A stretch of 64,000 bases of DNA from an uncultured Actinomycetota bacterium. Its GTDB lineage: Bacteria; Actinomycetota; Actinomycetes; JAFAQI01. The notes beneath the pieces are model-generated. The model was not told where the DNA came from. It worked only from the letters and a program-made list of their open reading frames with translations, and did not search any database. Below are positions 6,488-29,282 of the stretch, one piece after another; positions within the stretch are counted from its first letter, which is position 1, and each line of letters begins with the position of its first letter. Both the position numbers and the translations under genes were made by a program. The stretch is taken from the NCBI GenBank assembly GCA_963770565.1, contig CAVYQE010000011.1, forward strand, positions 1 to 64,000, in the 5' to 3' direction.

Positions 6488-6506
6488 ATCTGACGGGTCG
6501 TCACAT
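6488..6506. promoter_or_regulatory. CTGAC-N5-GTCAG-type palindromic operator, copy 1
   Basis: ATCTGACGGGTCGTCACAT between the divergent lipoprotein/ligase operon and the ALDH gene. Confidence 0.65.
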
Positions 6507-6560
6507 AATGGTCCGACCGTGGTCAGACCGCGTCTCGCGGCGTTCGGCGAAGGGATCGCA

Positions 6561-8009
6561 GTGACCGATTTCGAGCAGCTTCTGATCGGTGGTGAGTGGG
6601 TTGCACCCGCCTCGAACAGCCGTTTCGAGGTGCATTCACCAGCGACGCTCGAACTCGTCGGTTCGACCCCGGAGGGAGCCGAGGCCGACATCGACGCGGC
6701 GGTCGCGGCGGCGCGACGGGCGTTCGACCATGGCCCGTGGCCGACCACTTCGCCGGTCGACCGGGCCAAGGTGATCGCGCGGTTCGGCGAGCTGCTCGCC
6801 GAGCGGCTGCCGGAGTTCAAGACTGTGCTGACCGAGGAGATGGGCGCGCCCGGCGCGACCGTCGAGATGATGATGTACACGCCGGCGAGCGCCGTACTCG
6901 GCGTGTTCAACGAGCTGGCGACCAGCTTTCCCTGGGAAGAGACCCGCACCGGGTTGTTCGGGCAGAGCGTGGTGCGGCGTGAGCCGGTCGGAGTGGTGGC
7001 CGCGATCATTCCGTGGAACGTGCCGCTGTTCATCGCCATCAACAAGCTCGTGCCGGCGCTGCTCGCCGGGTGCACGGTGATCCTCAAGCCGGCGCCCGAG
7101 ACCCCGATCGACGCGTTGATGCTCGGCGCGCTGTTCGTCGAAGCTGGTCTGCCGGAGGGCGTGTTGTCGGTGGTGCCGGCGGACCGCACCGTGAGTGAGT
7201 ACCTGGTCACCCACCCCGGGGTCGACAAGGTGTCGTTCACCGGGTCGACCGCGGCCGGTCGTCGAGTCGGATCGCTGGCGACCGAGCGGCTGAAGCGGGT
7301 GTCGCTCGAGCTGGGAGGGAAGTCCGCCGCGATCGTGTTGGACGACGTCGACCTGGCCTCGAGCGCGTTCATGATCGCGTTCTCCGGGTTGATGAACAGC
7401 GGCCAGGCATGTGTCGCGCAGACCCGAATCCTCGCGCCCCGCTCGCGTTACGACGAGATCACCGAGGCGATCGTGGCGTCGGCCGCGATGATGAGCGTCG
7501 GTGACCCGAGCGACCCGGCCACCCAGCTCGGCCCCTTGGTCGCCGAGCGGCAGCGCGACCGGGTCGAGGGCTACATCGAGGCGGGCAAGTCCGAGGGGGC
7601 TCGGCTCGTGCTCGACGGCACCCGTCCGGCCGGGCTCGACCGGGGCTGGTACGTCGGCCCGACCGTGTTCGCCGACGTCGACAACGCGATGACGATCGCA
7701 CGGGAGGAGATCTTCGGCCCGGTGCTGTCGCTGATTCCCTACGAGACTGAGGCCGAGGCGCTGGCGATCGCGAACGACAGCGACTATGGGCTGGCCGGCT
7801 CGGTGTGGACCGCCGATATCGACCACGGCTTCGAGATCGCGACCAAGGTCCGCACCGGTACCTACGGCATCAACTGGTACGCCTTCGACATGGGTTCGCC
7901 GTTCGGCGGCTACAAGTGTTCAGGCATCGGGCGCGAGGACGGGCCGGAAGGGCTGGCCGCGTTCTGCGAGCTCAAGTCGATCCTGATGCCGCTCGGCTAC
8001 ACTGGCTGA
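6561..8009 (+). CDS. Aldehyde dehydrogenase
   Basis: IIPWN, FTGSTAAG, LELGGKS, NSGQACVA, EEIFGPV; GAAGGGA RBS. Confidence 0.95.
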   Translation: MTDFEQLLIGGEWVAPASNSRFEVHSPATLELVGSTPEGAEADIDAAVAAARRAFDHGPWPTTSPVDRAKVIARFGELLAERLPEFKTVLTEEMGAPGATVEMMMYTPASAVLGVFNELATSFPWEETRTGLFGQSVVRREPVGVVAAIIPWNVPLFIAINKLVPALLAGCTVILKPAPETPIDALMLGALFVEAGLPEGVLSVVPADRTVSEYLVTHPGVDKVSFTGSTAAGRRVGSLATERLKRVSLELGGKSAAIVLDDVDLASSAFMIAFSGLMNSGQACVAQTRILAPRSRYDEITEAIVASAAMMSVGDPSDPATQLGPLVAERQRDRVEGYIEAGKSEGARLVLDGTRPAGLDRGWYVGPTVFADVDNAMTIAREEIFGPVLSLIPYETEAEALAIANDSDYGLAGSVWTADIDHGFEIATKVRTGTYGINWYAFDMGSPFGGYKCSGIGREDGPEGLAAFCELKSILMPLGYTG

Positions 8010-8198
8010 GCGCGGCTGAGTGGCCCGCCCTCGGCGAGGTCCAGACCGAGGACGGAGGTGCCACGGTGCCAAGGACTCGGCGGCTACTGCTCCGCCGATC
8101 CCGCTCACGGCACCTGTCATGAGGGCCCGCCGGTCCAGCCGGACGGCCGCTCACCTGTGTACGGTACCCAATCTCGGGCGGTTCATCCATCCCAATCG

Positions 8199-8212
8199 TG
8201 GAATCGGTTGCT
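8199..8212. promoter_or_regulatory. Possible LacI-family operator
   Basis: TGGAATCGGTTGCT resembles TGnnAnCGnTnnCA; lies upstream of a LacI gene. Confidence 0.35.
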
Positions 8213-8592
8213 AAGGGCTTGATCCGGAGTCCGCTGGCGTCGGAAGGGCTGCGGACCGGCCGGACGCAGGTTGATTGGAAAGGATTTCACGGAACCGGGT
8301 TCGGAAATCATTGTGCTGAATTCGATGGATGAGTCATGACGGATACGACGCGTCACCTAGCGCACAATGTGTGCCTCATCGATCAGTCAATCCGCTCGCT
8401 TTCAGCGGCGGCCGGGTGCGGATCTGACTAGTCAAAGTGGGCCGGAACAGATTGCAGGCGGCGTCGTACCTGGCTGCTATTGTCCGAACCGATACCGCCT
8501 GCAAGTGGCGGTCCGGGGACGAAGGCATCCAGTCATGCAGGCACCGATCCCTCAGGTTCGCCGGGCGTCCCGCCCGTGACGCGGGCCACGGA

Positions 8593-9624
8593 ATGAGCAC
8601 TCGGGACACCCGCCGGGTCGGCATGAGGGATGTCGCCGAGCGGGCCGGAGTGGCGATCTCCTCGGTCTCGAGGGTCCTGTCGGGCAATCCCGATGTGTCC
8701 ACCGTCATGCGCAACCGGGTCGAGGACGCGGTCGCAGCGCTGGGCTACGAGCGAGATCTCATCGCGCAGAGCATGCGCAGCGGTCGGACGATGTCGATCG
8801 GGTTCGTCGCGATCGACGTTGCCAACCCGGTGATCGCCGCGAACTCGGCCGGTGCGGTCAGCGAGCTGCGCAAGTCCGGCTACAGCCTGTTGATGAGCAA
8901 CTCGCGCGGTGACCCTGCGCTCGACGCCGAGCACATTCGGCACTTCGAGCTGCGCCGGGTCGACGGCCTGCTGCTCTCGTTGGCCGATGAGCGCGATTCG
9001 CGCACCCTCGACGCGCTACGCCGGTTCGACGGGCCGATCGTCTTGATCGACCGGACCGTTGCGCCGGACATCCCGGCCGGCGCCATTGTCCACGACTACG
9101 TCGAGGGCATGGTCCCGGCCGCCGAGCACCTGCTGTCGCTCGGGCACCGCCGGCTGGCCATGATCAACGGCGCGCCGAACGTCCGACCGTCCCGCGAACG
9201 GGCCAACGCGGTGCGGCGCGCGATCAAGGGCTGGCCCGGCGCGACCCTGGTCGCGCGGGCCGGCTCATATTCGGCCGAGCATGGCTACGACGCGACGATC
9301 GCGATCTTCCGGGAGACCCCGACCCCCACCGCGGTGATCGTCGGGGGCAACCAGATCCTGCAGGGTGTGATGCGCGCGCTGCGGCACCTGCACCTGCGCA
9401 TCCCCGACGACGTCAGCCTGGTCAGCTTCGACAGCGTCCCGCTCGCGGAGTTCCTCGAGCCGCCGCTGGCGCATGTCACCCGCGATCCAATCGAGGTCGG
9501 CCGGCAGGCCGCGGCCCAGCTGCTCGAGCAGATCCGTGGGGCCGCGCCGCGGACGGTGACCCTGCCCACCGAGTACGTGCCGGCCGGAAGCTGTGGCCCA
9601 CCGCGACCGGACCGCCGTTCTTGA
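8593..9624 (+). CDS. LacI-family transcriptional regulator
   Basis: MRDVAERAGVAISSVSRVLSG HTH; LGHRRLAMING; IPDDVSLVSFD. Confidence 0.93.
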   Translation: MSTRDTRRVGMRDVAERAGVAISSVSRVLSGNPDVSTVMRNRVEDAVAALGYERDLIAQSMRSGRTMSIGFVAIDVANPVIAANSAGAVSELRKSGYSLLMSNSRGDPALDAEHIRHFELRRVDGLLLSLADERDSRTLDALRRFDGPIVLIDRTVAPDIPAGAIVHDYVEGMVPAAEHLLSLGHRRLAMINGAPNVRPSRERANAVRRAIKGWPGATLVARAGSYSAEHGYDATIAIFRETPTPTAVIVGGNQILQGVMRALRHLHLRIPDDVSLVSFDSVPLAEFLEPPLAHVTRDPIEVGRQAAAQLLEQIRGAAPRTVTLPTEYVPAGSCGPPRPDRRS

Positions 9625-9667
9625 CCGCTCGAACGCGCCTTCCATTCCCTGGTGCACAATCCATCCG

Positions 9668-10943: not shown

Positions 10944-10945
10944 GG

Positions 10946-11965
10946 TCAGGGCGGGATCACGACGGCGCGGCCGTTGAGGGTGCCGGCCCGAAGCCGCTCG
11001 TACGCCTGCGGGGTCTGCGCGAAGTCGAAGACCTCGGTCTCGATCGTCAGGTCGCCGGACTGCGCGAGCTCGATGACCGCGGTGAGCTCGGCAACCGTTG
11101 CTCCCTGCGGGATGAAGACGTCGCAGTCGTGCGCAAGCTGACCGAAGCGAATCTGCGCCGTACCGAAGCCTTGCCCGACGATCGCGACCGACCCGAGCGT
11201 GGCCGCGTTCCGGATCGCCGCGTTCATCGTCTGGTCGGTCCCGACGAAGTCGAGGATCGCCTCGGCGCCATCGGGCCCGACTGCTTCACGAAGCCGCCGC
11301 GACAGCCCGTCTCCGCCGAGCAGGGTGTCGTGCGCACCCAACCCGGTCGCCGCGGTCAGCCGCTCGGCCCGCGCGTCGATCGCGACGATCCGGGCCGGCG
11401 AGAGTAGTCGCAGCCACTGAAGCGCATAGCTGCCGAGACCACCGACGCCGATCACCACGGCGCTGGAGCCCGGGCCGAGTTTCGGCAGCACGCGCTGAAC
11501 CGCGTGGTAGCTCGTTGCGCCGGCATCGGTGAGCGGCGCGGCCTGAGCGGGTGACAGCGCGCCGATCGGCACGATGTCGCGGCGGCGTACGACGAGGTGT
11601 GAGGCGAGCCCGCCGTCGAGACCGAACCCGCGACCGCGCCACGAGTTGACGCAGTAGTTGTCAGCGCCGCGCCGGCACCAGCGGCACTCGCCGCAGGTCG
11701 ACATGCAGGTGATCGCGACCGAAGTGTCGATCTCGACGTCGTCGACCCCGGCGCCGACCGCGTCCACCCAGCCGGCGATCTCGTGCCCCAACGTGAACGG
11801 GACGGCGTAAGGCAGGATGCCGGCCGGCGCGTCGAGGAACAACACGTCCGAGTGGCAAAGGCCGACCCCACCGACTCGGACCAAGATCTCGTCGGGCTGG
11901 GGAACCGGGACCACGACCTCGGCGAAGCCGGGCTGTTGCCAGTCGAGCAGCCTGTACGCGCGCAT
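10946..11965 (-). CDS. Zn-dependent alcohol dehydrogenase
   Basis: GLCHSD, GHEIAG, CGECRWCRRGADNYC, IGVGGLG. Confidence 0.93.
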   Translation of the reverse strand: MRAYRLLDWQQPGFAEVVVPVPQPDEILVRVGGVGLCHSDVLFLDAPAGILPYAVPFTLGHEIAGWVDAVGAGVDDVEIDTSVAITCMSTCGECRWCRRGADNYCVNSWRGRGFGLDGGLASHLVVRRRDIVPIGALSPAQAAPLTDAGATSYHAVQRVLPKLGPGSSAVVIGVGGLGSYALQWLRLLSPARIVAIDARAERLTAATGLGAHDTLLGGDGLSRRLREAVGPDGAEAILDFVGTDQTMNAAIRNAATLGSVAIVGQGFGTAQIRFGQLAHDCDVFIPQGATVAELTAVIELAQSGDLTIETEVFDFAQTPQAYERLRAGTLNGRAVVIPP

Positions 11966-11978
11966 CGTGGTCGGGCGG

Positions 11979-12731
11979 CTAGCTGTTCGCGGCGAGGTAC
12001 GCCGACGTGAACGACAGCAGGACGGGCGAGTGGGCGGGACCGAAGATCTCGATCAGCCGGCCGCCGCGCTGGTAGGCGATCGCCATGGACAGCGGCGACT
12101 TGGTCAGCGTCCGCACCTTCGTGCCCGACAGCACGTAGTCAGCGATCTTCGCGTCCGACCCGACGAAGGCTTCGGCGCCTCTGGCCGCGTTGCCGAGGAC
12201 CTGGCCGACCGGGGTCTTGTCCAATGTCCCGCCGATCGTCGGCGTGTATTGCAGGATCACGATGGCGAGGTCCACCTGGTTGCTGCCGGCTCGCTCGACG
12301 CCACGGCCGACCACGGCCGAGGTGAGCCCGGTCGCCTTGATCTCGGACACGATCGGCGCGACGTTTGCCGGCAACGCGGTGTAGGAGTAGCCCGGCACCG
12401 GGACGACGTTGATCGAGGCCGGCGCCGGGGAGGCGCTGTGGCCGATCGATGCGCTCGGCACGGACGTGGCGGAGCCGCCGGATGACGACGAGCCGTTCCT
12501 GACCGCGGCCACGATGCCGACCGCGATCCCGCCGACCGCCACCACGAGGGCCACGGCCAGCACGACCGTGAGCAGCGCGTGCCGCGCCGCCCAGCCCTTG
12601 ACCTCCGGGTAGAAGATCCAGCCGTCAGGCGGCGGACCCCACGAGGGGTCGGGTTGCCATCCCGGTGGCGGCGCCCACCCGGGGTTCGGGGGCGGCGGCC
12701 AGTTCGGCGGGGGAGTCCACTGCGTCGGCAT
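11979..12731 (-). CDS. Membrane-anchored protein with Pro/Trp-rich N-terminus
   Basis: PPPNWPPPPNPGWAPPPGWQPDPSWGPPPDGW, then one TM helix and a Ser-rich linker. Confidence 0.7.
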   Translation of the reverse strand: MPTQWTPPPNWPPPPNPGWAPPPGWQPDPSWGPPPDGWIFYPEVKGWAARHALLTVVLAVALVVAVGGIAVGIVAAVRNGSSSSGGSATSVPSASIGHSASPAPASINVVPVPGYSYTALPANVAPIVSEIKATGLTSAVVGRGVERAGSNQVDLAIVILQYTPTIGGTLDKTPVGQVLGNAARGAEAFVGSDAKIADYVLSGTKVRTLTKSPLSMAIAYQRGGRLIEIFGPAHSPVLLSFTSAYLAANS

Positions 12732-12807
12732 CAGGTGTTCGCCTCTGGATCGTCAAACCGTCACGACAGGCTCGCATATCCGCGCGGCCGGTCGACCGCC
12801 CCGGAGT

Positions 12808-12826
12808 TTCTGACGCCCTTTCAGAT
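12808..12826. promoter_or_regulatory. CTGAC-N5-GTCAG-type operator, copy 2
   Basis: TTCTGACGCCCTTTCAGAT upstream of the acyl-CoA synthetase at 12863. Confidence 0.6.
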
Positions 12827-12862
12827 ATGGTCGGTACCCGATCAAATGTGGAGGACCTGTCC

Positions 12863-14449
12863 ATGTCGTCGGCGCTCGATCCACCGTCCGATCTGCACAC
12901 CGCCGCGTTCATGCCCGACCTGCTGGTTGCGGCGCTGACCCGCCACGCGGACCGACCCGCGGTCTATCTCGGCGACGAAGTCCTGACCGCAGCGCAGGTC
13001 GCGGCCGAGATCAGCCGGTACGTCCAGGCCTACCGCAGTCTCGGCATCGGAGTGCAGCATCCGATTGCGATGCTGTCGAAGAACCGGCCGGAAGTGCTGT
13101 TCACGATGGGCGCCAACATGCTCTCGGCCTGCCGGAGTACGTCGCTGCACCCGATGGGCTCGGTCGACGACCAGGCCTACGTACTGGACGATGCCGGCGT
13201 CGAGACGCTGGTGTTCGACCCGTCGGCGTTCGACGAGCGGGCGGCAGAGCTGCGCGAGCGGGTCCCCGGCCTCAAGACCTTGCTGTCCTTCGGGCCGTCC
13301 GAGTCCGGCGTCGACCTGATGGCGCTCGCCGCGACCTTCGAGCCGCAGCCGCTGGTCGCACCGGTCGTCGACCCCGAGCAGGTCACCGGGCTCACCTACA
13401 CCGGCGGCACCACCGGGCAGTCGAAGGGCGTGATGCAGACCTATCGCAGCGGCGCCGCACTCACCCAGATCCAGCTCGCGGAGTGGGAGTGGCCGGCCGA
13501 CACCCGGTTCCTGATCGCTACCCCGCTGTCGCATGCCGGTGCGGCCTTCTTCGTGCCCACGTTGCTTCGCGGCGGCTGCATCGTCGTACTGCCCGGCTTC
13601 GACCCGACCGCGGTGCTCGAGGCGATCCAGAACTACCGGATCACCGCGACGATGCTTGTGCCGACCATGCTCTACATCCTGATGGACCACCCGAAGATCG
13701 ACGAGTACGACCTGTCGAGTCTGGAGACCGTGTACTACGGTGCGGCCGCGATCTCGCCGACCCGGCTCAAGGAGGCGATTGAGCGGTTCGGACCGATCTT
13801 CTTCCAGTTCTTCGGGCAGTCCGAGTGCGGGATGACGATCGCCGTCCTGAAGAAGGAGGAGCACGACACCGGCGACCTTGCCCGGCTCGCCTCCTGCGGC
13901 CGGCCGGTGCCATGGTTGAAGGTGGCATTGCTCGACGACGCGATGAACGACGTGCCCGATGGCGAGCCCGGCGAGATCTGCGTGCGCGGCCCGTTGGTGA
14001 TGAAGGGCTACTGGAACAAGCCCGAGCAGACCGCGGAAGCGTTGCAGGGTGGCTGGCTGCACACCGGTGACATCGCCAGGCGCGACACAGGCGGCTTCCT
14101 GACGATCGTCGATCGCAAGAAGGACATGATCGTCTCCGGCGGCTTCAACGTCTTCCCGCGCGAGGTCGAGGACGTCATCGGCACGCATCCTTCGGTCGCG
14201 CAGGTCGCGGTTATCGGCGTGCCGGACGAGAAGTGGGGTGAGGCGGTCAAGGCGGTCGTGGTGCTGCGGCCCGAGCAGGTGGTCTCGGCCGACGAGCTTG
14301 CCGACCTGGTGCGGGAGCACAAAGGGGCGATCCACGCGCCGAAGTCGGTCGACTTCGTCGACGCGATTCCGTTGTCAGCATTGGGAAAGCCCGACAAGAA
14401 GGCGCTTCGCGCGCAGTACTGGCAGGGCGCGGACCGGATGGTCAACTAG
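12863..14449 (+). CDS. Acyl-CoA synthetase (FadD8-like)
   Basis: YTGGTTGQSKG, QFFGQSE, WLHTGD, DRKKDMIVSGGFNVFPREVE; GGAGG RBS. Confidence 0.9.
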   Translation: MSSALDPPSDLHTAAFMPDLLVAALTRHADRPAVYLGDEVLTAAQVAAEISRYVQAYRSLGIGVQHPIAMLSKNRPEVLFTMGANMLSACRSTSLHPMGSVDDQAYVLDDAGVETLVFDPSAFDERAAELRERVPGLKTLLSFGPSESGVDLMALAATFEPQPLVAPVVDPEQVTGLTYTGGTTGQSKGVMQTYRSGAALTQIQLAEWEWPADTRFLIATPLSHAGAAFFVPTLLRGGCIVVLPGFDPTAVLEAIQNYRITATMLVPTMLYILMDHPKIDEYDLSSLETVYYGAAAISPTRLKEAIERFGPIFFQFFGQSECGMTIAVLKKEEHDTGDLARLASCGRPVPWLKVALLDDAMNDVPDGEPGEICVRGPLVMKGYWNKPEQTAEALQGGWLHTGDIARRDTGGFLTIVDRKKDMIVSGGFNVFPREVEDVIGTHPSVAQVAVIGVPDEKWGEAVKAVVVLRPEQVVSADELADLVREHKGAIHAPKSVDFVDAIPLSALGKPDKKALRAQYWQGADRMVN

Positions 14450-19027: not shown

Positions 19028-19039
19028 GGCCGGAGTGTA

Positions 19040-20678: not shown

Positions 20679-21611
20679 CTACTTGATCGCAACCGGTGCA
20701 ACCGGCGCGCCGGCCGCATGCACCACCGGCTCGGGCGTGGCGCTCAGCAGGAAGCTGTAGCGGCCGTCGTCCGCACAGTCGCCGGCCAGCACCTCGAGGT
20801 CGAAGTTCTGCCCCTGCACGAGCCCCATCTCGACGATGTGCAGCATGTGCACCGGCAGCAAGAGGTCGGCGCGCTCACCCGGGAAGACCTCGAAGGACAG
20901 GTTGTCCGTCGCGACCGCCGCGACGTCGCGGTCCCGGAACCAGCGGACCGTCTGCATCGACGGACCCGCCGTACTGATGCTGTAGGCGAGCCTGTCGCCG
21001 GCCAGCAGGTGCTGGATCTGGCCGGTCCGCAGCAGCACGATGTCGCCGCTGCCGACCCGCACCCCGGCGAGCTCCTCGGCCCGGTCGAGATCGGCCGCGG
21101 TCAGCGGGTAACCGCCCTCGAGTCGATCGACCCCGGCTGAGCGGGCCAGGTCGAGCAGCACGCCGCGGGACACGATCGCGCCGAGCTTCTCGGCGCCGAG
21201 CCGGGTCGCGCCGGTGTCGTCGACGATCGACGGCGGATAGCCGTTGTACAGCCGGCCGTCGTAGCTGACGTGCGCCAACGCATCCCAGTGCGTCGCGGCC
21301 TGCACGCCCATCGACAGCGCGTCGTCGTTGAACCGCACGCCGTGCTCGTCGTCGCCCAGCAACTCGTGCCGGGCGATCGTCGTACGGATCGGGTTGGTGC
21401 GGCCTTTGACGAACCCGAGCTGCGGCCCGGCTTCCGACATCGGCAGGGCCAGGCTGATGCGCTTGCCGTCCCGGACCAGCTCGACGGCTGCGCGGACGGT
21501 GTCAGCGGTGATGAGGTTGAGCGTGCCGCGCTCGTCGTCGCTTCCCCAGCGGCCCCAGTTGTTGACCTCGGCCGCGAGCTCCGCGAACTCGGCGATGTCC
21601 GGGCCGCTCAC
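20679..21611 (-). CDS. Cyclase-family (kynurenine formamidase-like) metallohydrolase
   Basis: NWGRWGSDDERGTLN, THWDALAH, GDIVLLRTG, VATDN. Confidence 0.88.
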   Translation of the reverse strand: MSGPDIAEFAELAAEVNNWGRWGSDDERGTLNLITADTVRAAVELVRDGKRISLALPMSEAGPQLGFVKGRTNPIRTTIARHELLGDDEHGVRFNDDALSMGVQAATHWDALAHVSYDGRLYNGYPPSIVDDTGATRLGAEKLGAIVSRGVLLDLARSAGVDRLEGGYPLTAADLDRAEELAGVRVGSGDIVLLRTGQIQHLLAGDRLAYSISTAGPSMQTVRWFRDRDVAAVATDNLSFEVFPGERADLLLPVHMLHIVEMGLVQGQNFDLEVLAGDCADDGRYSFLLSATPEPVVHAAGAPVAPVAIK

Positions 21612-21618
21612 GCCGCGG

Positions 21619-22164
21619 TCACGCCCGGTCGGGCGGGGTGCAGATCCGGCACGCATTGAGCGTCGTGAGGGTGAGCTCGACCTCGCTGAGATCGTCCCGC
21701 CCGGCCACCACGGTGCAGTCGAGCCGGTGATAGATCGTGCCGTCCGCGGTAGCGACGTAGCGTTCTTCGACCGCCTCGATGCCGGTGATCTCGCCGGCGG
21801 CGCCGGCCGCCAGCAGCGCTTCGATCCGCCCGATCGCGCGGGCCAGGCTGACCGCTTGTGACCGGGCCTCGCGGATCCGCACGGTTTGCCAGTACGCGAA
21901 GTACGCGAAGCCACCGGCCACGACCACCGCGAGCCCGAGGATGCCGCCCGAGATGATGTAGTCGTCCTGCTCGTAGACCAGCGTGGTGTGCGCCGCGTTC
22001 GCCCAGCCGAGCACGATCAGGACGATGCCGAGCGGGATGAGCACTGCACCCGCCACCAGCAGCCAGCGGTCGAGGCTTCCGGCCGATGCCCGCCGGCGCA
22101 GCCGGCCGATCCGGTCGGACAGCCCGTTGATCCGGTCGTCGGCGGACTCGGTCGAGGTCGTCAT
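21619..22164 (-). CDS. Two-TM membrane protein with C-terminal Cys/His motif
   Basis: TM helices; C-terminal YVATADGTIYHRLDC...CRIC, Ada-like metal-binding pattern. Confidence 0.75.
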   Translation of the reverse strand: MTTSTESADDRINGLSDRIGRLRRRASAGSLDRWLLVAGAVLIPLGIVLIVLGWANAAHTTLVYEQDDYIISGGILGLAVVVAGGFAYFAYWQTVRIREARSQAVSLARAIGRIEALLAAGAAGEITGIEAVEERYVATADGTIYHRLDCTVVAGRDDLSEVELTLTTLNACRICTPPDRA

Positions 22165-22288
22165 CGTTCCCCTTCGAGGTGGCAGTCGTCGCCCTTGCTC
22201 AGCAACACCTGGTCCGCGAGTCGTATCAATCCGGATCCGACCACGATCGCCGCGATCACCGCGACCACGTCCCAACCGGCGGACAACG

Positions 22289-22292
<4 letters not shown>
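22161..22292 (-). CDS. 43-aa single-TM small protein, absent from the ORF track
   Basis: MTLSAGWDVVAVIAAIVVGSGLIRLADQVLLSKGDDCHLEGER; ATGA overlaps with both neighbours. Confidence 0.7.
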
Positions 22293-22992
<700 letters not shown>

Positions 22993-22996
<4 letters not shown>

Positions 22997-23787
22997 GGCG
23001 CCGGCTCCTCGACCCCGAGGTACGCCGCCTGCACCACCGGGTCGGTGCGGATCGCGCCCGGAGGCCCTTCGGCGATGACCCGGCCGAAGTCCAGCACGTA
23101 GATCTGGCTGCAGACTCGCATGACGAGTTCCATGTGGTGCTCCACCAGCAGGATCGCCATCCCGCTCGCCGCGAGGTCGAGCATGAGGTCGCCGAGGGCC
23201 TCGGTCTCGGTATGGCTGAGGCCTGACCCGGCCTCGTCGAGCAGCAACAGGCGGGGCCTGGTGGCGAGCGCGCGACCAAGCTCCACCAGCCGGGCCAGGC
23301 CGGTCGGCAGCGAGTCGACCCGCGCATCGACCACGCTCCCCAGGCCCACCTGCGCGATGATCTCGGCGGCAATCTCCCGCGGGGACCGGCGCTCGCTCGA
23401 CCACGACCGGTGGAACTCGGCGGCCGCCAGGATGTTCTCGTACGCCGTCAACGAGCCGAAGACCTCGAGGCGTTGGAAGGTCCGTGCCACGCCGAGCCGG
23501 GCCCGCTTGTGCGGGGGGAGCCGGCTGACGTCGTGGCTGTCGATCACGACCCGCCCCTTGGTCGGTCGCTGCAGGCCGGTGATCACGTTGAAGGTGGTGG
23601 TCTTGCCGGCGCCGTTCGGCCCGATCATTCCGGTGACGTGACCGGCAAGCGCGGCGAAGGAGACGTCGGATACCGCGTCGATGCCCCCGAACCGGACCGA
23701 CACGCCATTCACCTCGAGCACGGGCGTCGCGCCGGGCGGCGTCGAGGCGGGCGCTGGCTCAGTGAGCTGGGCTGGCAAGCCGATCAC
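22993..23787 (-). CDS. Liv-type ABC ATPase (LivG-like)
   Basis: GPNGAGKTT, ARTFQ, LLLDE, VEHHM, AYLG; start approximate. Confidence 0.9.
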
Positions 23788-25690
23788 CCTCCTCCGCGAT
23801 GAAGGCGGCGGCCGGTGTGCCGGCCAGGTAGCTGCCTGGCCCGCGCCGCGGGCCGGCGGCCCGGAACAGCTCGATCACGTTGGCGATCCGCCCGCTGATG
23901 CCGTTGGGGTCGCGCCCGACGCTGATCGCGGCCAGGCCGGTCAGCAGGTATTGCAGCTCGCCGAGCCGTGGAAAGTGCGGCGCGGCGACGTTGAACGCGG
24001 TCAGCGTGGCCGCACCCAGGAGTGCGCCGGTCGCGGTGTTGATCCCGCCGACCCGGGCCAGCAGCAGGACGGTCAGGCTGACCAGCGAGGCGAAGTCGGC
24101 GGAGCTGACCGCGCCCGGGCTGCCGCCGTACAGCACTCCAGCGAGCCCGGCCATCCCGGCCGAGATCGTGAAGGCGATCAGCTTGGTGCTGTTGATGTTG
24201 ACCCCGAGCGTCGCGCAGGCGGCGGGGGAGTCGTTGGCCGCGACCAACCGGCGGCCGAACGGGCCGCGACGCAACGCGAGGACGCCGATCGCGCAGGCCA
24301 CGAACACCACGCAGGTCAGCACGAAGAAGGACTGGTCCGACTGGGTCGGGATGCCTGGGATCCGCACCCGCCGGATGAACAGGCTCCCGCCGGTTCCGAG
24401 TGACTCGTTGAAGAAGGCGGAGTCCATGATCGCGGCGAACGCGAAGGTCGCCAGCGCGAGATAAAGCCCGCGCAGCCTCAAGGTGGGCATCGCGACGAGT
24501 GCGCCGACCGCCGCCGACAGCCCGATCGCGGCGAGCACCCCGAGCCACGAACCGCCGTGTGCCACGTGTCCCATCGCGTAGGCGCCGAGACCGACGAAGG
24601 TCATCTGGCACAGCGACGCCATCCCGCCGTACCCGGTCAGCAGGACGAGCGAAAGCAGGACGAGGGCGAGCGCGAAGCCCTGCGCGCCGATCCGCAGGTT
24701 GTTGCCGGACAGACCGGTCGAGACCACGGCCGCGGCAGCGATCAGCGCGGCGCCTACCGCAAGCGAGCCGCGCAGGCTGGCGACCCGTGGCGGTACGACG
24801 CCGGTGAAGGACGCGGTCCGCAGCCGGCTCTGCGGGAGCAGGATCAGGACCATGAAGAGGACGACGATCGGGATGATGTTCTGGATCCGGTCGGTCCACC
24901 CGGTCTGCGGCAGGTAACCGAACAACACGCTCTGGCCGACCGCGATCCCGATCGCGCCGGCAATCGCCATCGGCACGCTCCGCAGCCGACCGATGATCGC
25001 GGCGGCATACCCGTCGACGACCAGCAGGGTCAGGTCCAGGACGCTGAGCTCGTTGATCGCCGCGAGCAGTATGCCGGCCAGCGCGGCGAGCGAGCACGAC
25101 AGCGCCCACGACATCTGCTTGACCCGGATCGGCCGGCCACCGGCCATCGCGAGCAGGTCGGCGTTGTCGACCACGGCTCGCATCGCGATGCCGGCGCGAG
25201 CCCTGGTGAGCAGCAGGCGGAGCCCCACGGCGACGACGACCAGCGACACCGCGGCCACCACCTGCTCGTAGCTGATCAGCAGTCCGGTCACTTCGAATCC
25301 GTTGCCGTGGAAGAACTCCGGCAGCGAGCGGCCGACCTGCTGGTTCCAGACCAGGTTGCTCAGGCCGACGAGGAACAGCAGGAGCCCGAGGGTGACCACG
25401 AGGGTGAGGTCCACCGGTGCGCCTTCGAGCGGCCGCATCAGGATCCGTTCGACGATCAGGCCGAACAGTGGTGCGAGCACGACCAGCACGAGCGCCACCG
25501 CCAGCACGACGTTGAGGTGCCAGCCCTGCCACAGCTGCCAGAACGTGTATGCCGCGATCATCGCGATCGCGCCGTGGGCGAAGTTGAAGATACCGGTCGT
25601 GGTGTAGGTGACCACCAGACCGGTGGAGATCAACGCGTAGACGCAGCCGGTCACCAGCCCGAGGACGACGTAGCTGAGGAAGAGCGTCAC
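23759..25690 (-). CDS. Fused LivH-LivM-type ABC permease
   Basis: GIFNFAHG (LivH half), GYGGMASL and RLRGLYLALAT (LivM half). Confidence 0.9.
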   Translation of the reverse strand: MTLFLSYVVLGLVTGCVYALISTGLVVTYTTTGIFNFAHGAIAMIAAYTFWQLWQGWHLNVVLAVALVLVVLAPLFGLIVERILMRPLEGAPVDLTLVVTLGLLLFLVGLSNLVWNQQVGRSLPEFFHGNGFEVTGLLISYEQVVAAVSLVVVAVGLRLLLTRARAGIAMRAVVDNADLLAMAGGRPIRVKQMSWALSCSLAALAGILLAAINELSVLDLTLLVVDGYAAAIIGRLRSVPMAIAGAIGIAVGQSVLFGYLPQTGWTDRIQNIIPIVVLFMVLILLPQSRLRTASFTGVVPPRVASLRGSLAVGAALIAAAAVVSTGLSGNNLRIGAQGFALALVLLSLVLLTGYGGMASLCQMTFVGLGAYAMGHVAHGGSWLGVLAAIGLSAAVGALVAMPTLRLRGLYLALATFAFAAIMDSAFFNESLGTGGSLFIRRVRIPGIPTQSDQSFFVLTCVVFVACAIGVLALRRGPFGRRLVAANDSPAACATLGVNINSTKLIAFTISAGMAGLAGVLYGGSPGAVSSADFASLVSLTVLLLARVGGINTATGALLGAATLTAFNVAAPHFPRLGELQYLLTGLAAISVGRDPNGISGRIANVIELFRAAGPRRGPGSYLAGTPAAAFIAEEGDRLASPAH

Positions 25691-25703
25691 GGTGGTGAGT
25701 GTC

Positions 25704-27053
25704 CTACGGCGTGTACGGCAGGAAGCTGCCGTCGCACCGATAACCCACCTTTGGATCGCTCATTCGCTGGAACTGGCCGTTCTGCAGCTGCCACAGGATG
25801 TAGCAGTGGTTGCCGGTGGTCTTCGAGCTCGGGTCGGTGGGTGCGATCAGGCCTTGGTCGCTGAAGTTCCTGATCTTCGCCAGCGCCGCAAGCACTGATT
25901 GGCGGTTCGCGGTCGGGCCGGCGTTCTCGAACGCCTGTTGCAGCATTCGGCCGTCCGCCCACGCGAACATCGCATACAGGTTGAGCGGCGCCTTGCCGTT
26001 CGTGTTCTTGAACCAGGTCTGCAACAGCTTTACCTCGGGGATGTTCGTTGCCTCCGAAGAGTTGAAGAACAGCGAATACTCGCTCCATCCCTCGATTCCG
26101 TTGAGCGCGGAGACCTTGCCCTGGAAATCCGGGATGAACGCCGAGTCGTAGGCGATCGGGATGATGTTGATCACCCCTTTGCAGGCCGCGATCGAGTGCT
26201 CGTTCTGGATCATGGTCGCCGCGTTCTGCGCGTTCTCCGCCGAGGTGTAGAAGACCTGGATGTGGTCCTTGCCGCAGGCGGTCTGGAAATTGCTGGTGAA
26301 GTTGCTGTCAGTAGCCGCCGCGGTGTTCTGGTAGGTGAACTTCCAGCCCTGGCTCTCGGCCGCGTGCACCATCGCGGCCTGCTTGGCAAGTGCCGACGGT
26401 ACGTCGGGGGCGATCGTGCCGACGTGTTGGACCTTCGAGCCGTACTTCTGCGCGAAGTACTTGAACATGCCGGTCGCGTAGCCGGCCGACCCCGGTTCGA
26501 GGTCGAAGTGGTTGCTCAGCGGCTCGGCGGTCGGATCGAGGGCGACGTGGATGTCCGGCACGGTCGGGTGGGCTTGCAACACCGTCGCACCGCATCCGTT
26601 GCCGTCGTACAGCGAGAACGAACCGACGAACGCGAAGACCTTGTCGATCAGGCTGGTGGTGTCGTTCTGGTTCATCGTGCAACTCGTGCCCGAGTCGAGG
26701 AAGTCGATGACGACCTTGTGGCCGCACAGCCCGCCGGTCGAGTTGATGTAGTTGGCGAAGGCGTTCGCGCCCTGCTGCGCCCCGGCGAACAGACCGCTGA
26801 CCGGGCCGGTGCGATCCGCGACGGTGCCGAGCGTGATCGTCGAACTGGTCAGGCCCACGTCGGTCCCGCTCGTGGGGCACTTCGGGTTGAGCGCCACGCC
26901 CGAGGTGCTCGGGCTCGGTGCGCCGATCGCCGGCGGGGTGCTCTGGGAACTGCTCGCAGAGGTCTGTGGCGACGGTGAGACCCGCGCGCCGCAGGCCGCT
27001 GCGCCGAGCGCGGCCACCAGAAGGAGGGCGGCAAGAGCACGAGACCTACGCAT
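25704..27053 (-). CDS. ABC substrate-binding lipoprotein (Liv/PBP1 type)
   Basis: AAAC lipobox; YINSTGGLCGHKV motif; several Cys. Confidence 0.88.
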   Translation of the reverse strand: MRRSRALAALLLVAALGAAACGARVSPSPQTSASSSQSTPPAIGAPSPSTSGVALNPKCPTSGTDVGLTSSTITLGTVADRTGPVSGLFAGAQQGANAFANYINSTGGLCGHKVVIDFLDSGTSCTMNQNDTTSLIDKVFAFVGSFSLYDGNGCGATVLQAHPTVPDIHVALDPTAEPLSNHFDLEPGSAGYATGMFKYFAQKYGSKVQHVGTIAPDVPSALAKQAAMVHAAESQGWKFTYQNTAAATDSNFTSNFQTACGKDHIQVFYTSAENAQNAATMIQNEHSIAACKGVINIIPIAYDSAFIPDFQGKVSALNGIEGWSEYSLFFNSSEATNIPEVKLLQTWFKNTNGKAPLNLYAMFAWADGRMLQQAFENAGPTANRQSVLAALAKIRNFSDQGLIAPTDPSSKTTGNHCYILWQLQNGQFQRMSDPKVGYRCDGSFLPYTP

Positions 27054-27083
27054 CCGAGTCCCTTCGGTCGGCTGGCTCCGTTG

Positions 27084-27599
27084 TCATCTGGCTCGGCGCC
27101 CGGTTACCGACATGGTCGAGCCGGCCGGTGCGCCGGTCGGAGGCATCCCCAGCTTCCGGTGGTCCCACGATCGCACCCTGCTCGCTTTGACCCGGATCGC
27201 CACCCGCTTGTTGAGCATTGCCTCGACGATCGGCTTGAGGTCGTCGGTGTAGGGGCCGTAGTAGCGCTCGAAGATGTTGACGCCGATCGCCCACAGCAGG
27301 TCGGCGTCATCGCTGACCTCGGCGACGCCCTCGATCTCGACCCCGCGCAGGTCTTCGTAGACGATGCCGTCCTCGACCAGGCAGCTGACCCGCGGGTCGC
27401 GGCGCAGGTTGATCGCCTTCTGGGACTTGGTCTTGGTCTCGAAGCAGATGTCGCCGTCGAGCACCGCGAACCACATCGCGACCAGGTGCGGCTGCCCGTC
27501 CGCTCCGAGGCTGGCCAGCGTCATCGACCTGGTGCCGTCGAGCAGCTCCTTGATCTCGGTCTCGGACAGCACGATCTCGGCCCGCCGGTTGACGCCCAC
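27084..27599 (-). CDS. PPOX-class F420-dependent split-barrel oxidoreductase
   Basis: GQPHLVAMWF, KSQKAINLRRDPRV, SWDHRK. Confidence 0.85.
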   Translation of the reverse strand: MGVNRRAEIVLSETEIKELLDGTRSMTLASLGADGQPHLVAMWFAVLDGDICFETKTKSQKAINLRRDPRVSCLVEDGIVYEDLRGVEIEGVAEVSDDADLLWAIGVNIFERYYGPYTDDLKPIVEAMLNKRVAIRVKASRVRSWDHRKLGMPPTGAPAGSTMSVTGRRAR

Positions 27600-27604
27600 G
27601 TCGC

Positions 27605-28729
27605 TCAGCTCGCGGCGGACTGCGCGAGCAGCTCCGCCATCCGTTCGGTCGTGGCGATCCATTCCTCGACCAGCTCGAACATCACTTCCTGAGTCGGCCG
27701 CACCCGGTTCATCCGGCCCACGATCTGTCCGACCGGGAAGCCGGCGAGCTCGCGGTTGTGCGCCCGGCTCACCCGTCTCGCCATCTCGCCGAACAGGATG
27801 CCCTGCAGTGGCATCGGCAATGTCTTCGGCGCGTCCTCGCGCTCCCACGCCTCGGTCCAGGCGGTGCGCAGCTGGCGGGCCGGCTTGCCGGTCATCGCGC
27901 GCGACCGGACGGTGCTCCGCGAGTCGGCGGCGAGGATGTTGTCCAGCGCCTCGGGCGGGGTGTTGGCCTCGGTCACCGACAGCCAGATGGATCCGGTCCA
28001 CGCGCCCTGCGCCCCGAGCGCCAGGCTCGCGGCGATCTGCCGCCCGGTGCCGATGCCGCCGGCGGCAAGGACGGGTACGTCGGGACCGACCACGTCGACC
28101 ACCTCGGGGACCAGCACCATGGTCGAGATGTCACCGGTGTGCCCGCCCGCCTCGGTGCCCTGGGCGACGATGACGTCGACGCCCTGCTCGACCTGCTTCT
28201 CGGCGTGCCGCTTGCTGCCGACGAGCGCGGCGACCAGCACGCCATGGTCGTGCGCAGTGTCGACGACCTCCTTGGGTGGCGGTCCGAGCGCGTTGACGAG
28301 CAGCTTGGTGGGGTGCGCGAGGGCCACCTCGACCGCCCGGGTGGCCTGGTCGTCGACGCCGAGGCCGGCCGCGCGGGCCCGCTCGTTGTAGTCGGCCGGC
28401 AGCTGGGGGATGTCGTACTCGGCCAGGATCGCGTCGACGTAGTCCCAATACTGCTGGGGGATCATCGCGCGGAGCTCGTGCTCGTCGGGTTGCTTCCCGC
28501 CTTTGCCGACGTAGTTGGCTGGCATCACGAGGTCGACGCCGTACGGCAGGCCGTCGACGTGGTCGTCGATCCAGGCCAGCTCGACCTCGAGCTCTTCGGG
28601 GGTGAAGGCCAGTGCGCCGAGGACGCCGAAGCCGCCGGCGCGGCTGACCGCGGCGACGACATCGCGGCAGTGCGAGAAGGCGAAGATAGGGAACTCGATC
28701 CCGAACTTGTCACAGACCGCGGTGCGCAC
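27605..28729 (-). CDS. Nitronate monooxygenase / FabK-like flavin oxidoreductase
   Basis: AFSHCRDVV, QGTEAGGHTG, LAAGGIG, WTGS. Confidence 0.88.
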   Translation of the reverse strand: MRTAVCDKFGIEFPIFAFSHCRDVVAAVSRAGGFGVLGALAFTPEELEVELAWIDDHVDGLPYGVDLVMPANYVGKGGKQPDEHELRAMIPQQYWDYVDAILAEYDIPQLPADYNERARAAGLGVDDQATRAVEVALAHPTKLLVNALGPPPKEVVDTAHDHGVLVAALVGSKRHAEKQVEQGVDVIVAQGTEAGGHTGDISTMVLVPEVVDVVGPDVPVLAAGGIGTGRQIAASLALGAQGAWTGSIWLSVTEANTPPEALDNILAADSRSTVRSRAMTGKPARQLRTAWTEAWEREDAPKTLPMPLQGILFGEMARRVSRAHNRELAGFPVGQIVGRMNRVRPTQEVMFELVEEWIATTERMAELLAQSAAS

Positions 28730-28746
28730 GTGTCCTCCGAAACCGA

Positions 28747-28765
28747 ATCTGACGCCTCGTCAGGT
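28747..28765. promoter_or_regulatory. CTGAC-N5-GTCAG-type operator, copy 4
   Basis: ATCTGACGCCTCGTCAGGT in the divergent gap between NMO and Ddn genes. Confidence 0.7.
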
Positions 28766-28785
28766 TGCAGAGTACGGTGCTTCGG

Positions 28786-29256
28786 GTGACCTCACAACGA
28801 TCCTCGGAATTCGCTACACCGAGTCGTGACGACATCGTTGCGATCAGCAAGAAGCACGTGTCGAAGATGGAGTCCTCCGACGCCGACGAGGTCTGGATCT
28901 GGGTCGGGATGCACCATCTGCTGTTGCGCACGATCGGGCGGCGTACCGGCAAGGAGCACAAGGTGGCGCTGCCGTTCTGGCGCGATCCGGACGGGCACCG
29001 GATCGTGGTCGCGTCGTTCGCCGGCGCCGCGGCCGATCCGGCGTGGTACCTCAACCTGGCCGATCGGGAGGTGAACCCGACCGTCAGAGTTGCCGTGCAG
29101 GGCGGTTCCTTCTGGTCGGAACCCGAACTGCTCGACGATGATGAGCGCCGGCGGATCTGGGACCTGCTCGTCGTCGATCGCCCGCACTACACGGAGTACC
29201 AGCGCACCATTGAGCGCACGATCCCCCTCGTCCGTCTTCGCGAACCTGCGGGCTGA
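28786..29256 (+). CDS. Ddn-family F420-dependent nitroreductase/quinone reductase
   Basis: LRTIGRRTG, VASFAG...PAWYLNL, YQRTIERTIP; start uncertain (28765 or 28786). Confidence 0.85.
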   Translation: MTSQRSSEFATPSRDDIVAISKKHVSKMESSDADEVWIWVGMHHLLLRTIGRRTGKEHKVALPFWRDPDGHRIVVASFAGAAADPAWYLNLADREVNPTVRVAVQGGSFWSEPELLDDDERRRIWDLLVVDRPHYTEYQRTIERTIPLVRLREPAG

Positions 29257-29263
29257 TTGCGGT

Positions 29264-29282
29264 TCCTGACGGGTCGTCAGGT
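29264..29282. promoter_or_regulatory. CTGAC-N5-GTCAG-type operator, copy 5
   Basis: TCCTGACGGGTCGTCAGGT just upstream of TAGGGT (-10) and GTG 29301. Confidence 0.7.

What the first reader, a model, noticed from the sequence alone, without database searches (positions are those of the whole stretch)
6488..29282. Uncharacterised regulon marked by an ATCTGAC-N5-GTCAGAT operator
Seen: copies at 6488, 12808, 19040, 28747, 29264 and 59079, all in intergenic or start regions with identical 5-bp spacing, five of six between divergent genes. Several abut -10 hexamers of apparently leaderless genes (TACACT before 19027, TACGGT before 28786, TAGGGT before 29301). Known: it matches neither the KstR box (TnnAACnnGTTnnA), the KstR2 box nor a LacI-type box. 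Inference: a repressor, probably encoded elsewhere, co-controls ALDH, two CoA ligases, ECH, thioesterase, LLM, Nudix, DUF35-thiolase, NMO, PPOX, an ABC importer, cyclase, Ddn and two amidohydrolases, i.e. a whole catabolic pathway for an unidentified substrate.
Basis: partly seen in the sequence, partly recalled or inferred. Interest (0 to 1): 0.8.

Follow-up and report, generated by a model that had tools for sequence, protein, structure and literature searches.

The report
TetR operator of a lipid/steroid-ring regulon
The repeated palindrome is very probably the docking site of one TetR-type repressor, encoded on another contig, that switches about twenty breakdown operons on and off in uncultured soil actinobacteria; this is a familiar kind of switch whose regulator family appears undescribed.

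Summary
All six sites exist at the stated coordinates. The real motif is the longer palindrome TCTGACG-N3-CGTCAGA. With at most 1 mismatch to the core CTGACG-N3-CGTCAG, the window has 5 matches against 0.58 expected, and 0 of 100 shuffles reach 5.

The genome has 20 distinct high-scoring sites, all at gene 5' ends. Thirteen of them lie in one supercluster of about 112 kb that joins contigs C2, C9 and the window.

The best candidate regulator is the genome's only TetR_C_38 (PF19352) protein, at G000:C1:1080401-1081120. It sits beside echA20-like and ipdAB genes and carries two sites of its own.
- Sixteen of 16 orthologous loci keep the sites.
- Genomes with the TetR have 8-14 exact sites; 21 of 24 genomes without it have 0-1.
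- Fifty-eight of 63 homologue loci across Actinomycetota carry the motif, against 1 of 63 for a reversed control.
- The recognition helix is invariant down to 33% identity.

Sites abut or overlap -10 boxes of mostly leaderless genes, which fits repression. Targets include the steroid ring C/D (HIP) gene set, but the regulator and its box are not KstR2's.

I found no description in print. An earlier scan note (e1-3873423) describes a probably related regulon on other DNA. This is a new member of a known kind.

The parts
6488..6506 (.). Operator 1, ATCTGACGGGTCGTCACAT, between a lipoprotein-like gene (minus strand, ATG at 6471) and the ALDH gene (plus strand, GTG at 6519).
   Evidence: A -10 box TACGGT (6478-6483, minus strand) is followed by 6 nt and the ATG. 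An orthologous site precedes the FadD19-like gene in G009.
2360..6471 (-). Leftward unit of operator 1: lipoprotein-like gene, acyl-CoA synthetase (PRK07798), SnoaL_4 protein, enoyl-CoA hydratase (PRK05864) and an unknown gene.
   Evidence: Own gene calls, Pfam, NCBIfam. The extent of the operon is inferred from spacing only.
6519..8009 (+). Aldehyde dehydrogenase, the rightward target of operator 1.
   Evidence: Pfam Aldedh, E 4e-154.
12808..12826 (.). Operator 2, TTCTGACGCCCTTTCAGAT, between an unknown 250-aa gene plus ADH (minus strand) and a FadD8-like ligase (plus strand).
   Evidence: A -10-like TATGGT at 12826-12831 overlaps the site's end. GGAGGA lies at 12850-12855 and an ATG at 12863, so this gene has a leader. 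An orthologous site exists in G009.
10946..15291 (.). Divergent units of operator 2: ADH and an unknown gene (10946-12731, minus strand); FadD8-like ligase and an unknown 280-aa gene (12848-15291, plus strand).
19040..19058 (.). Operator 3, ATCTGACGGGGTGTCAGAT.
   Evidence: Leftward: TACACT (19034-19039), 6 nt, then ATG at 19027. Rightward: TAATCT (19038-19043), 6 nt, then GTG at 19050. Both genes look leaderless. An orthologous site exists in G009.
17517..20674 (.). Divergent units of operator 3: F420-type LLM oxidoreductase and a Nudix (CoA pyrophosphatase-like) gene on the minus strand; DUF35/ChsH2-type OB protein and a thiolase-like lipid-transfer protein (PRK06059) on the plus strand.
28747..28765 (.). 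Operator 4, ATCTGACGCCTCGTCAGGT, between the NMO-family gene (minus strand) and the Ddn-like gene (plus strand).
   Evidence: TACGGT (28773-28778), 7 nt, then GTG at 28786. Orthologous sites occur in 4 of 4 other genera examined.
20679..29256 (.). Units around operator 4. Minus strand: NMO-family reductase (IpdC-like by family only), F420 PPOX-class protein, and possibly the co-directional ABC importer and cyclase genes further down. Plus strand: deazaflavin-dependent reductase (28786-29256).
   Evidence: Co-transcription past the 187-nt gap at 26897-27084 is inference.
29264..29282 (.). Operator 5, TCCTGACGGGTCGTCAGGT.
   Evidence: TAGGGT (29289-29294), 6 nt, then GTG at 29301. Orthologous sites with the same geometry occur in 4 of 4 other genera.
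29301..32252 (+). Amidohydrolase_2 gene, which starts at GTG 29301 and has a reading-frame break near 29440 in this assembly, followed by an Amidohydrolase_3 gene.
59079..59097 (.). Operator 6, ATCTGACGCCGCATCAGAA, 89 bp before the SCO6745-family HTH gene. It is lineage-specific.
   Evidence: A site is present only in G000 and G003 among 30 orthologous loci.
57369..58990 (-). SCO6745-family (HTH_67) gene and an SDR gene, the probable target unit of operator 6.

Best explanation
The palindrome TCTGACG-N3-CGTCAGA is the operator of one TetR-family repressor, encoded outside the window at G000:C1:1080401-1081120 (minus strand). It has a TetR_N HTH and a TetR_C_38 (PF19352) domain and is 228-239 aa long.

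A dimer binds each 17-19-bp site. The sites lie on or just upstream of the -10 hexamers of mostly leaderless and often divergent promoters, so binding blocks RNA polymerase. The repressor also sits on its own gene: one site at +7 to +25 of its internal promoter, and one in the divergent SDR-tetR / echA20-ipdAB promoter region.

An intermediate of the pathway, most likely a CoA thioester, is inferred to release it. About 20 operators are controlled in this way. They cover CoA ligases, paired acyl-CoA dehydrogenases, hydratases, thiolase-like enzymes, F420 enzymes, amidohydrolases and an importer, and they include the steroid ring C/D (HIP) gene set.

Shown: the sites, their positions, their conservation, and their co-occurrence with the TetR. 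Inferred: binding, repression and the ligand.
For: 1. Sites. G000 has 20 distinct PWM hits of 20 bits or more, and the next hit scores 18.7. All lie at gene 5' ends. Of the three that my gene calls place inside a CDS, two reflect over-long ORF calls and one lies within an operon, just upstream of the next gene.

2. Autoregulation. The only PF19352 gene in G000 has sites at C1 1081061 and C1 1081914. Sixteen of 16 orthologous loci in relatives carry at least one site, and 14 of 16 carry at least two.

3. Phyletic pattern. The 16 genomes with the TetR have 8-14 exact core sites. G007, with 12 sites, has a TetR fragment cut by a contig end. Of the other 24 genomes, 21 have 0-1 sites. The reversed control gives 0-2.

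4. Wide conservation. Fifty-eight of 63 homologue loci carry a core site with at most 1 mismatch within about 4 kb: 24 of 24 at 73% identity or more, 17 of 20 at 50-62%, and 17 of 19 at 33-47%. The reversed control hits 1 of 63.

5. DNA-reading residues. The G[TS]S[PA]ATFYQYFVD recognition helix is invariant apart from these two positions (P78 is Ala in one Parafrankia homologue), and a DGRxxGxR arm is invariant, in 24 sequences down to 33% identity.

6. Regulon conservation. In four other genera, sites precede orthologues (64-89% identity) of the same genes. Distant TetR homologues sit among orthologues of the same target genes.

7. Geometry. In 16 of 40 site orientations, a TANNNT hexamer lies within -1 to +15 nt of the site's outer end (2 more lie under or before the site) and is followed by 5-8 nt and a start codon. 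Site centres lie from about -22 to -39.

8. Fold. The AF2 model is all-helical (pLDDT 89). Its nearest folds are EthR, followed by the acyl-CoA-binding TetRs DesT, FasR and FadR.
Against: There is no binding or expression data.

Three genomes have sites but no TetR was found: G011 (10 sites), G020 (3 sites) and G040 (9 sites). All are only 57-75% complete, and the G040 counts rest on an unpublished genome.

The PWM was trained on 19 of the 20 sites it ranks, so its scores are circular. Only the exact-core counts are independent.

Gene coordinates come from my own crude caller.

The site at the TetR gene lies inside the N-terminal coding region if the start is M1 or V12, so coding constraint could add to its conservation. 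However, its distance from the conserved DGR codon varies from -60 to -300 nt between clades.

Cultured Frankia, Pseudofrankia and Parafrankia homologues (57-62% identity) have only one-mismatch sites, and no regulon gene lies within 4 kb of them.
Confidence: 0.8

Rival explanations
1. The sites are bound by a different regulator that I did not identify. The PF19352 TetR would then be only a regulated member of the cluster.
For: Three genomes have sites but no detected TetR. I made no systematic search for other co-occurring DNA-binding proteins.
Against: The recognition helix is invariant across homologues of 33-98% identity, all of which keep the same motif nearby. The three exceptional genomes are only 57-75% complete. 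The two regulators in the window are poor candidates: orthologues of the SCO6745-family gene carry a site in 2 of 30 loci, and the KstR-like TetR has its own canonical KstR box at 47693.
Confidence: 0.08
2. The TetR binds the sites but acts as an activator at some or all promoters, as was reported for Ms6564.
For: Some site centres fall at -30 to -39 and overlap the -35 region. Ms6564, whose operator shares the GACG-N3-CGTC core, was reported to regulate its targets positively (PMC3273814, passages read).
Against: The centres vary from -22 to -39 and are not fixed. Many sites touch or overlap the -10 box. At the TetR's own promoter and at the DUF35 gene, the site lies downstream of or across the start. 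The protein is not close to Ms6564: chains 4JKZ and 4JL3 (entry codes taken from scan note e1-7746245) are not among the best 60 PDB matches at E up to 10.
Confidence: 0.08
3. The palindromes act at the RNA level, as hairpins, terminators or REP-like repeats, and are not protein-binding DNA sites.
For: A 6-8-bp stem with a 3-nt loop could form. One site (C2 10728) lies at the 3' end of a gene.
Against: The arm sequence itself is conserved across classes, with no compensatory changes, while the 3-nt centre varies. The sites lie upstream of apparent transcription starts of leaderless genes, most between divergent genes. No T-tract follows them.
Confidence: 0.03

Closest known systems
KstR2 (Rv3557c) and its HIP / steroid ring C-D regulon in Mycobacterium and Rhodococcus
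   Same: A TetR-family repressor with a palindromic operator in divergent promoter regions. One KstR2 box lies in the Rv3549c (SDR) / Rv3550 (echA20)-ipdAB intergenic region (PMC3068626, passages read). Here the new motif occupies the equivalent SDR / ECH-ipdA-ipdB region. The targets share IpdB, a FadD3-family ligase, a thiolase and IpdE2-like dehydrogenases.
   Different: The operator is TCTGACG-N3-CGTCAGA and not AnCAAGnnCTTGnT, and G000 has no intergenic KstR2 box. No chain named KstR2 is among the 60 best PDB sequence matches. The regulon is far larger: about 20 operators here against 3 for KstR2. It reaches genes that in mycobacteria belong, from recall, to the KstR regulon or to no steroid regulon.
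EthR (Rv3855) of M. tuberculosis
   Same: It is the nearest solved fold (TM 0.83-0.86 normalised to the target, 19% identity) and among the nearest PDB sequence matches (E about 2e-6). The protein atlas places EthR_C clusters next to PF19352 clusters.
   Different: Identity is low, the targets differ, and the operators are unrelated. EthR's long multi-dimer operator is recalled and was not checked here.
Ms6564 of M. smegmatis (operator ACGAGACG-GTA-CGTCTCGT)
   Same: A 19-bp palindrome built from 8-nt arms around a 3-nt centre, with the same inner GACG-N3-CGTC core (PMC3273814, passages read).
   Different: The outer three arm positions differ (CGA against TCT). The proteins are not specifically related. 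Ms6564 was described as a broad regulator that activates DNA-repair genes.
KstR3 of Mycolicibacterium neoaurum and SRTF1 of Nocardioides (Pimelobacter) simplex
   Same: Both are additional TetR-family regulators of steroid-related genes beyond KstR and KstR2. KstR3 controls a DUF35 / thiolase-like aldolase operon (PMC10398937, passages read). SRTF1 binds a 22-bp palindrome beside kstD (PMC7062782 and PMC7807495, passages read).
   Different: Both are small local regulons. No operator sequence appears in the KstR3 passages I read. Neither protein sequence was available to me, so membership in PF19352 could not be tested.

Membership tests
TetR-family repressor with palindromic operator | N-terminal TetR HTH followed by an all-helical ligand-binding and dimerisation domain. 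| tested here: met
   Pfam gives TetR_C_38 at 2.4e-43 and TetR_N at 6e-7. The AF2 model has nine helices and pLDDT 89. EthR, DesT and FasR are the top folds.
TetR-family repressor with palindromic operator | An inverted-repeat operator of about 15-20 bp in the promoter regions of the targets. | tested here: met
TetR-family repressor with palindromic operator | An operator at the regulator's own gene or its divergent neighbour. | tested here: met
   Sixteen of 16 orthologous loci and 58 of 63 wider homologue loci carry a site. Positions are given.
TetR-family repressor with palindromic operator | The protein binds the operator and is released by a small ligand. | not testable with these tools
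   This needs a gel shift or footprint and a ligand titration.
KstR2 regulon | The regulator is orthologous to KstR2. | tested here: not met
   No chain named KstR2 is among the 60 best of 84 PDB matches at E up to 10. That KstR2 structures exist in the PDB is recalled. The C-terminal domain is PF19352.
KstR2 regulon | Operator AnCAAGnnCTTGnT. | tested here: not met
   The motif was taken from PMC3068626. G000 has 2 matches, both inside CDS, and none near the ipdAB locus.
KstR2 regulon | Targets are the HIP-catabolic genes ipdAB, echA20, fadD3, fadA6 and the ipdE / fadE30-33 set. | tested here: met
   IpdB matches PDB 6co6_B at 3.4e-74 and 6con_B at 2.2e-68. The FadD3-family model NF005801 scores 745 bits against a cut-off of 657, and thiolase PRK07801 scores 703 against 591. 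ECH PRK07938 scores 406 against 260. The IpdE2 model scores 130-224 bits, below its cut-off of 450. That PRK07938 corresponds to EchA20 and PRK07801 to FadA6 is recalled and not shown.
KstR regulon | Operator TnnAACnnGTTnnA and a KstR orthologue. | tested here: not met
   None of the six sites fits this box. A separate KstR-like TetR (56756-57367; 200 bits against a cut-off of 280) and a KstR box at 47693-47706 exist in the window.
Ms6564-type operator | Arm ACGAGACG, 3-nt centre, and a protein related to Ms6564. | tested here: not met
   Only the inner GACG core and the spacing are shared. The protein is not among the best PDB matches.

The most novel reading that the evidence does not exclude
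PF19352 (TetR_C_38) proteins are a phylum-wide master regulator of a conserved CoA-dependent pathway for alicyclic or steroid-ring-like compounds, with an unchanged recognition helix and operator. The lineages span uncultured Frankiales-like soil bacteria and freshwater Acidimicrobiia.

In these lineages the family takes the place of KstR2 at the echA20-ipdAB locus and absorbs about 20 operons. It does so in genomes where no KshA was found, which suggests organisms that live on ring C/D-type fragments, or a related non-steroid substrate, and not on whole steroids.
Probability: 0.35. Interest if true: 0.6.

Novelty: new member of a known kind. Interest (0 to 1): 0.4.

Why it matters
The finding names the regulator, the operator and the core target set for a large, conserved and unstudied catabolic regulon of abundant uncultured soil and freshwater Actinomycetota.

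It shows that the ring C/D (ipdAB, fadD3) genes can be wired to a regulator other than KstR2.

It gives a directly testable pair: one protein and a 19-bp site, with cultured Frankia, Pseudofrankia and Parafrankia homologues available. Such a pair could help to find the pathway's inducer and substrate, and could serve as a biosensor part.

The mechanism itself is ordinary.

Tried and rejected
- **SCO6745-family HTH gene (58118-58990) as the regulator.** Rejected. A site with 2 or fewer mismatches occurs in only 2 of 30 orthologous loci.
- **KstR-like TetR (56756-57367).** Rejected. It has its own KstR box at 47693.
- **KstR2.** No intergenic box in G000.
- **Ms6564.** This lead came from scan note e1-7746245. 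The motif is only partly alike and the protein is unrelated.
- **SRTF1 and KstR3.** I read passages only. No sequences or matching operator were available, so this stays open. Supplements were not opened and may hold the SRTF1 (Acin1) motif.
- **Literature searches.** (CTGACG, TetR, palindrom, operator; TetR_C_38, PF19352: 0 papers) gave no description of this pair.
- **Site C1 242754.** It has a core mismatch and lies in a roughly 60% GC stretch. It has no Rfam match and lies 54 nt inside a 295-aa ORF. I left it as doubtful.
- **KshA_C (PF19298).** Not found in G000, which is 94.9% complete. I therefore do not claim whole-steroid degradation.
- **The 14 control genomes.** They do not ring for PF19352. 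The controls named include no Mycobacterium, and one of the 14 was never named, so this says nothing about mycobacteria.


Full report
**Observation**

The pattern ATCTGAC-N5-GTCAGAT has one exact match in the window, at 19040. At that setting the excess is weak: the shuffles average 1.72 matches, and 1 of 100 reached 6.

The six sequences share a longer palindrome, TCTGACG-N3-CGTCAGA. The core CTGACG-N3-CGTCAG with at most 1 mismatch gives 5 window matches against 0.58 expected, and 0 of 100 shuffles reached 5. Site 12808 has two core mismatches and is missed by that test.

Across the whole genome (4.43 Mb, 11 contigs, 69% G+C), the loose pattern matches 113 times. Of the 84 matches with 3 mismatches, 64 lie inside CDS, so most of these are chance. 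Of the 12 matches with 0-1 mismatch, 11 are intergenic or at a gene edge.

**The sites in the genome**

A PWM built from 19 sites separates 20 distinct hits of 20 bits or more from the next hit at 18.7. This ranking is circular, because the PWM was trained on 19 of those 20 sites. The independent figure is the exact core count: 13 occurrences in G000 against 0 for the reversed control. Three of the 13 are copies in contig C9.

C9 overlaps the start of C2 (99.6% identity, reversed) and the start of the window's contig (97.7% identity). C2:38402-1, C9:12203-27288 and the window therefore form one stretch of about 112 kb, which holds 13 of the sites.

All 20 sites sit at gene 5' ends. My gene calls place three of them inside a CDS. 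Two of these reflect over-long ORF calls: the Pfam domains start about 100 residues into the ORF. The third lies 27 nt before a stop codon, just upstream of the next gene.

**Regulator**

The window holds two regulators next to relevant DNA.
- The SCO6745-family HTH gene lies behind site 59079. Among 30 orthologous loci, only G000 and its nearest relative have a site with 2 or fewer mismatches.
- The KstR-like TetR at 56756-57367 scores 200 bits against a cut-off of 280. It has a canonical KstR box at 47693-47706 beside its own cluster.

On contig C1, two sites flank an SDR gene whose stop codon overlaps the ATG of a TetR gene. This is the only PF19352 (TetR_C_38) gene in G000.

Sixteen of 41 related genomes, G000 included, have an orthologue. 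All 16 loci carry at least one site, and 14 carry at least two.

Exact core counts follow the gene:
- The 16 genomes with the TetR have 8-14 sites.
- G007, with 12 sites, has a TetR fragment cut by a contig end.
- Of the remaining 24 genomes, 21 have 0-1 sites. This includes G001, which is in the same genus and 96% complete.
- Three genomes have sites but no detected TetR: G011 (10 sites), G020 (3 sites) and G040 (9 sites). They are 57-75% complete. The G040 figures rest on an unpublished genome.

**Wider conservation**

A scan of species-representative genomes gave 63 loci with a real homologue. A core site with at most 1 mismatch lies within about 4 kb in 24 of 24 loci at 73% identity or more, in 17 of 20 at 50-62%, and in 17 of 19 at 33-47%. 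The reversed control hits 0, 0 and 1 loci.

The record titles name uncultured Frankiaceae, Mycobacteriales, Actinomycetota and Acidimicrobiia MAGs, and also cultured Frankia, Pseudofrankia and Parafrankia strains.

The helix-turn-helix stretch G[TS]S[PA]ATFYQYFVD is invariant apart from those two positions, and an N-terminal DGRxxGxR arm is invariant, in 24 aligned sequences. This fits an unchanged DNA specificity.

The site upstream of the DNA-binding domain lies from -60 to -300 nt from the DGR codon, depending on the clade. That variation argues for an operator and against a coding constraint.

**Regulon content and its conservation**

In four other genera, exact sites precede orthologues (64-89% identity) of the same genes:
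- 4 of 4 genera: amidohydrolase_2, the NMO and Ddn-like pair, a thiolase / acyl-CoA dehydrogenase pair, an SDR, a DUF35-thiolase fusion, and a large-subunit dehydrogenase.
- 3 of 4 genera: the dehydrogenase pair on C1.
- G009 only: LLM / DUF35-ltp, the FadD8-like ligase and the FadD19-like ligase.

Distant TetR homologues also sit among orthologues of these genes.

At the TetR locus, the divergent operon encodes three products:
- An enoyl-CoA hydratase (PRK07938, 406 bits against a cut-off of 260).
- A split CoA-transferase alpha gene.
- A beta subunit that matches IpdB of Rhodococcus and M. tuberculosis over its full length (3.4e-74 and 2.2e-68).

The C9 site heads an operon with a FadD3-family ligase (745 bits against 657), a thiolase (703 against 591), and a large plus an IpdE2-like small dehydrogenase.

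The regulon therefore covers the HIP (steroid ring C/D) gene set. However, KshA_C was not found in G000, so I do not claim that whole steroids are degraded.

**Mechanism**

The geometry fits repression.
- Site 19040 lies between ATG 19027 and GTG 19050, each of which is preceded by a TANNNT hexamer and 6 nt.
- Sites 28747 and 29264 end 7 and 6 nt before TACGGT and TAGGGT, which are followed by GTG 28786 and GTG 29301.
- Orthologues of the amidohydrolase keep the arrangement of operator, -10 box, 6-7 nt, then start codon.
- In 16 of 40 site orientations genome-wide, such a hexamer and start codon are found at the site, in 14 of them beginning -1 to +15 nt from its outer end.
- The TetR gene has TACGAT, 7 nt and a GTG (V12), with the operator at +7 to +25.

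Site centres vary from about -22 to -39. This variation argues for steric repression and against fixed-position activation.

The model of the protein is all-helical (pLDDT 89). Its nearest folds are EthR, followed by the acyl-CoA-binding TetRs DesT, FasR and FadR. A CoA-ester ligand is inferred from this and from the CoA-dependent targets. It is not shown.

**Comparison with what is known**

KstR2 has a box in the equivalent SDR / echA20-ipdAB region of M. tuberculosis (PMC3068626, passages read). Its motif is absent from intergenic DNA here, and no chain named KstR2 is among the 60 best PDB matches to this protein.

Ms6564 has a 19-bp operator with the same GACG-N3-CGTC core but different outer bases (PMC3273814, passages read). 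It is also an unrelated protein.

KstR3 and SRTF1 are further steroid-related TetRs (passages read). I could not test whether they belong to PF19352.

Searches for the family name returned no paper, and searches for the motif and for related terms returned none that describes this pair.

The scan has logged many TetR-operator regulons of acyl-CoA clusters. One note, e1-3873423, concerns a protein that shares words with an Acidimicrobiia homologue of this TetR. The same family was therefore probably seen before on other DNA.

**Verdict**

The regulator is now named with about 0.8 confidence. The kind of system is ordinary, but this regulator family and its operator appear undescribed, and their wide, unchanged conservation is notable.

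Noticed in passing
47693-47706; 46508-57367: A canonical KstR box (TAAAACACGTTCTA) lies between a thiolase gene (minus strand) and a P450 gene (plus strand). It heads a sterol-side-chain-like cluster of P450, two ChsH2-type OB proteins, a thiolase-like protein, an SDR, two acyl-CoA dehydrogenases and a CoA ligase. The cluster ends in a KstR-like TetR (200 bits against a cut-off of 280). This is a second, separate regulon in the window.
   Followed up: partly
29301-29445: The amidohydrolase_2 gene starts at GTG 29301 but changes reading frame near 29440 relative to its orthologues. This is either an assembly indel or a real frameshift. The ipdA-like gene on C1 (L001 about 17284-17315) is split in the same way.
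   Followed up: partly
window 1-7998; G000 C9 and C2: Contig C9 overlaps the window's first 8 kb at 97.7% identity and the start of C2 at 99.6% identity. The three contigs are therefore neighbours, and the overlaps look like strain variants kept by the assembler.
   Followed up: partly
59079-59097 and G000:C1:1081914-1081932: Both sites share the weaker half-site CATCAGAA. At the TetR locus this variant is kept across genera, as GAATCTGACGCCNCATCAGAAAG. It may be a tuned low-affinity autoregulatory site.
   Followed up: no
15295-15882 (-): A 195-aa ORF matches the type VI secretion Hcp family (PF05638) at E 7.7e-10, which is unexpected in an actinobacterium.
   Followed up: no
L006:7160-8335 (G000 C9): An HsaB-like flavin reductase (196 bits against a cut-off of 230) is fused to an IclR C-terminal ligand-binding domain. 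It lies in the operon that holds the FadD3-family ligase.
   Followed up: no
L006:10074-11255 and L003:9373-10707: An HMG-CoA reductase gene and an HMG-CoA-synthase-like domain fused to a DUF35 OB domain lie inside the supercluster. The fusion gene is preceded by an operator in 4 of 4 other genera examined.
   Followed up: no
42826-44022 and L005:15022-16194: Two DUF222 (HNH-endonuclease-associated) genes lie inside the supercluster.
   Followed up: no
G000:C1:236001-250000 (L008): A stretch of about 10 kb has roughly 60% G+C, against 69% for the genome. My codon model calls few genes there. It holds a doubtful operator-like site at C1 242754.
   Followed up: partly
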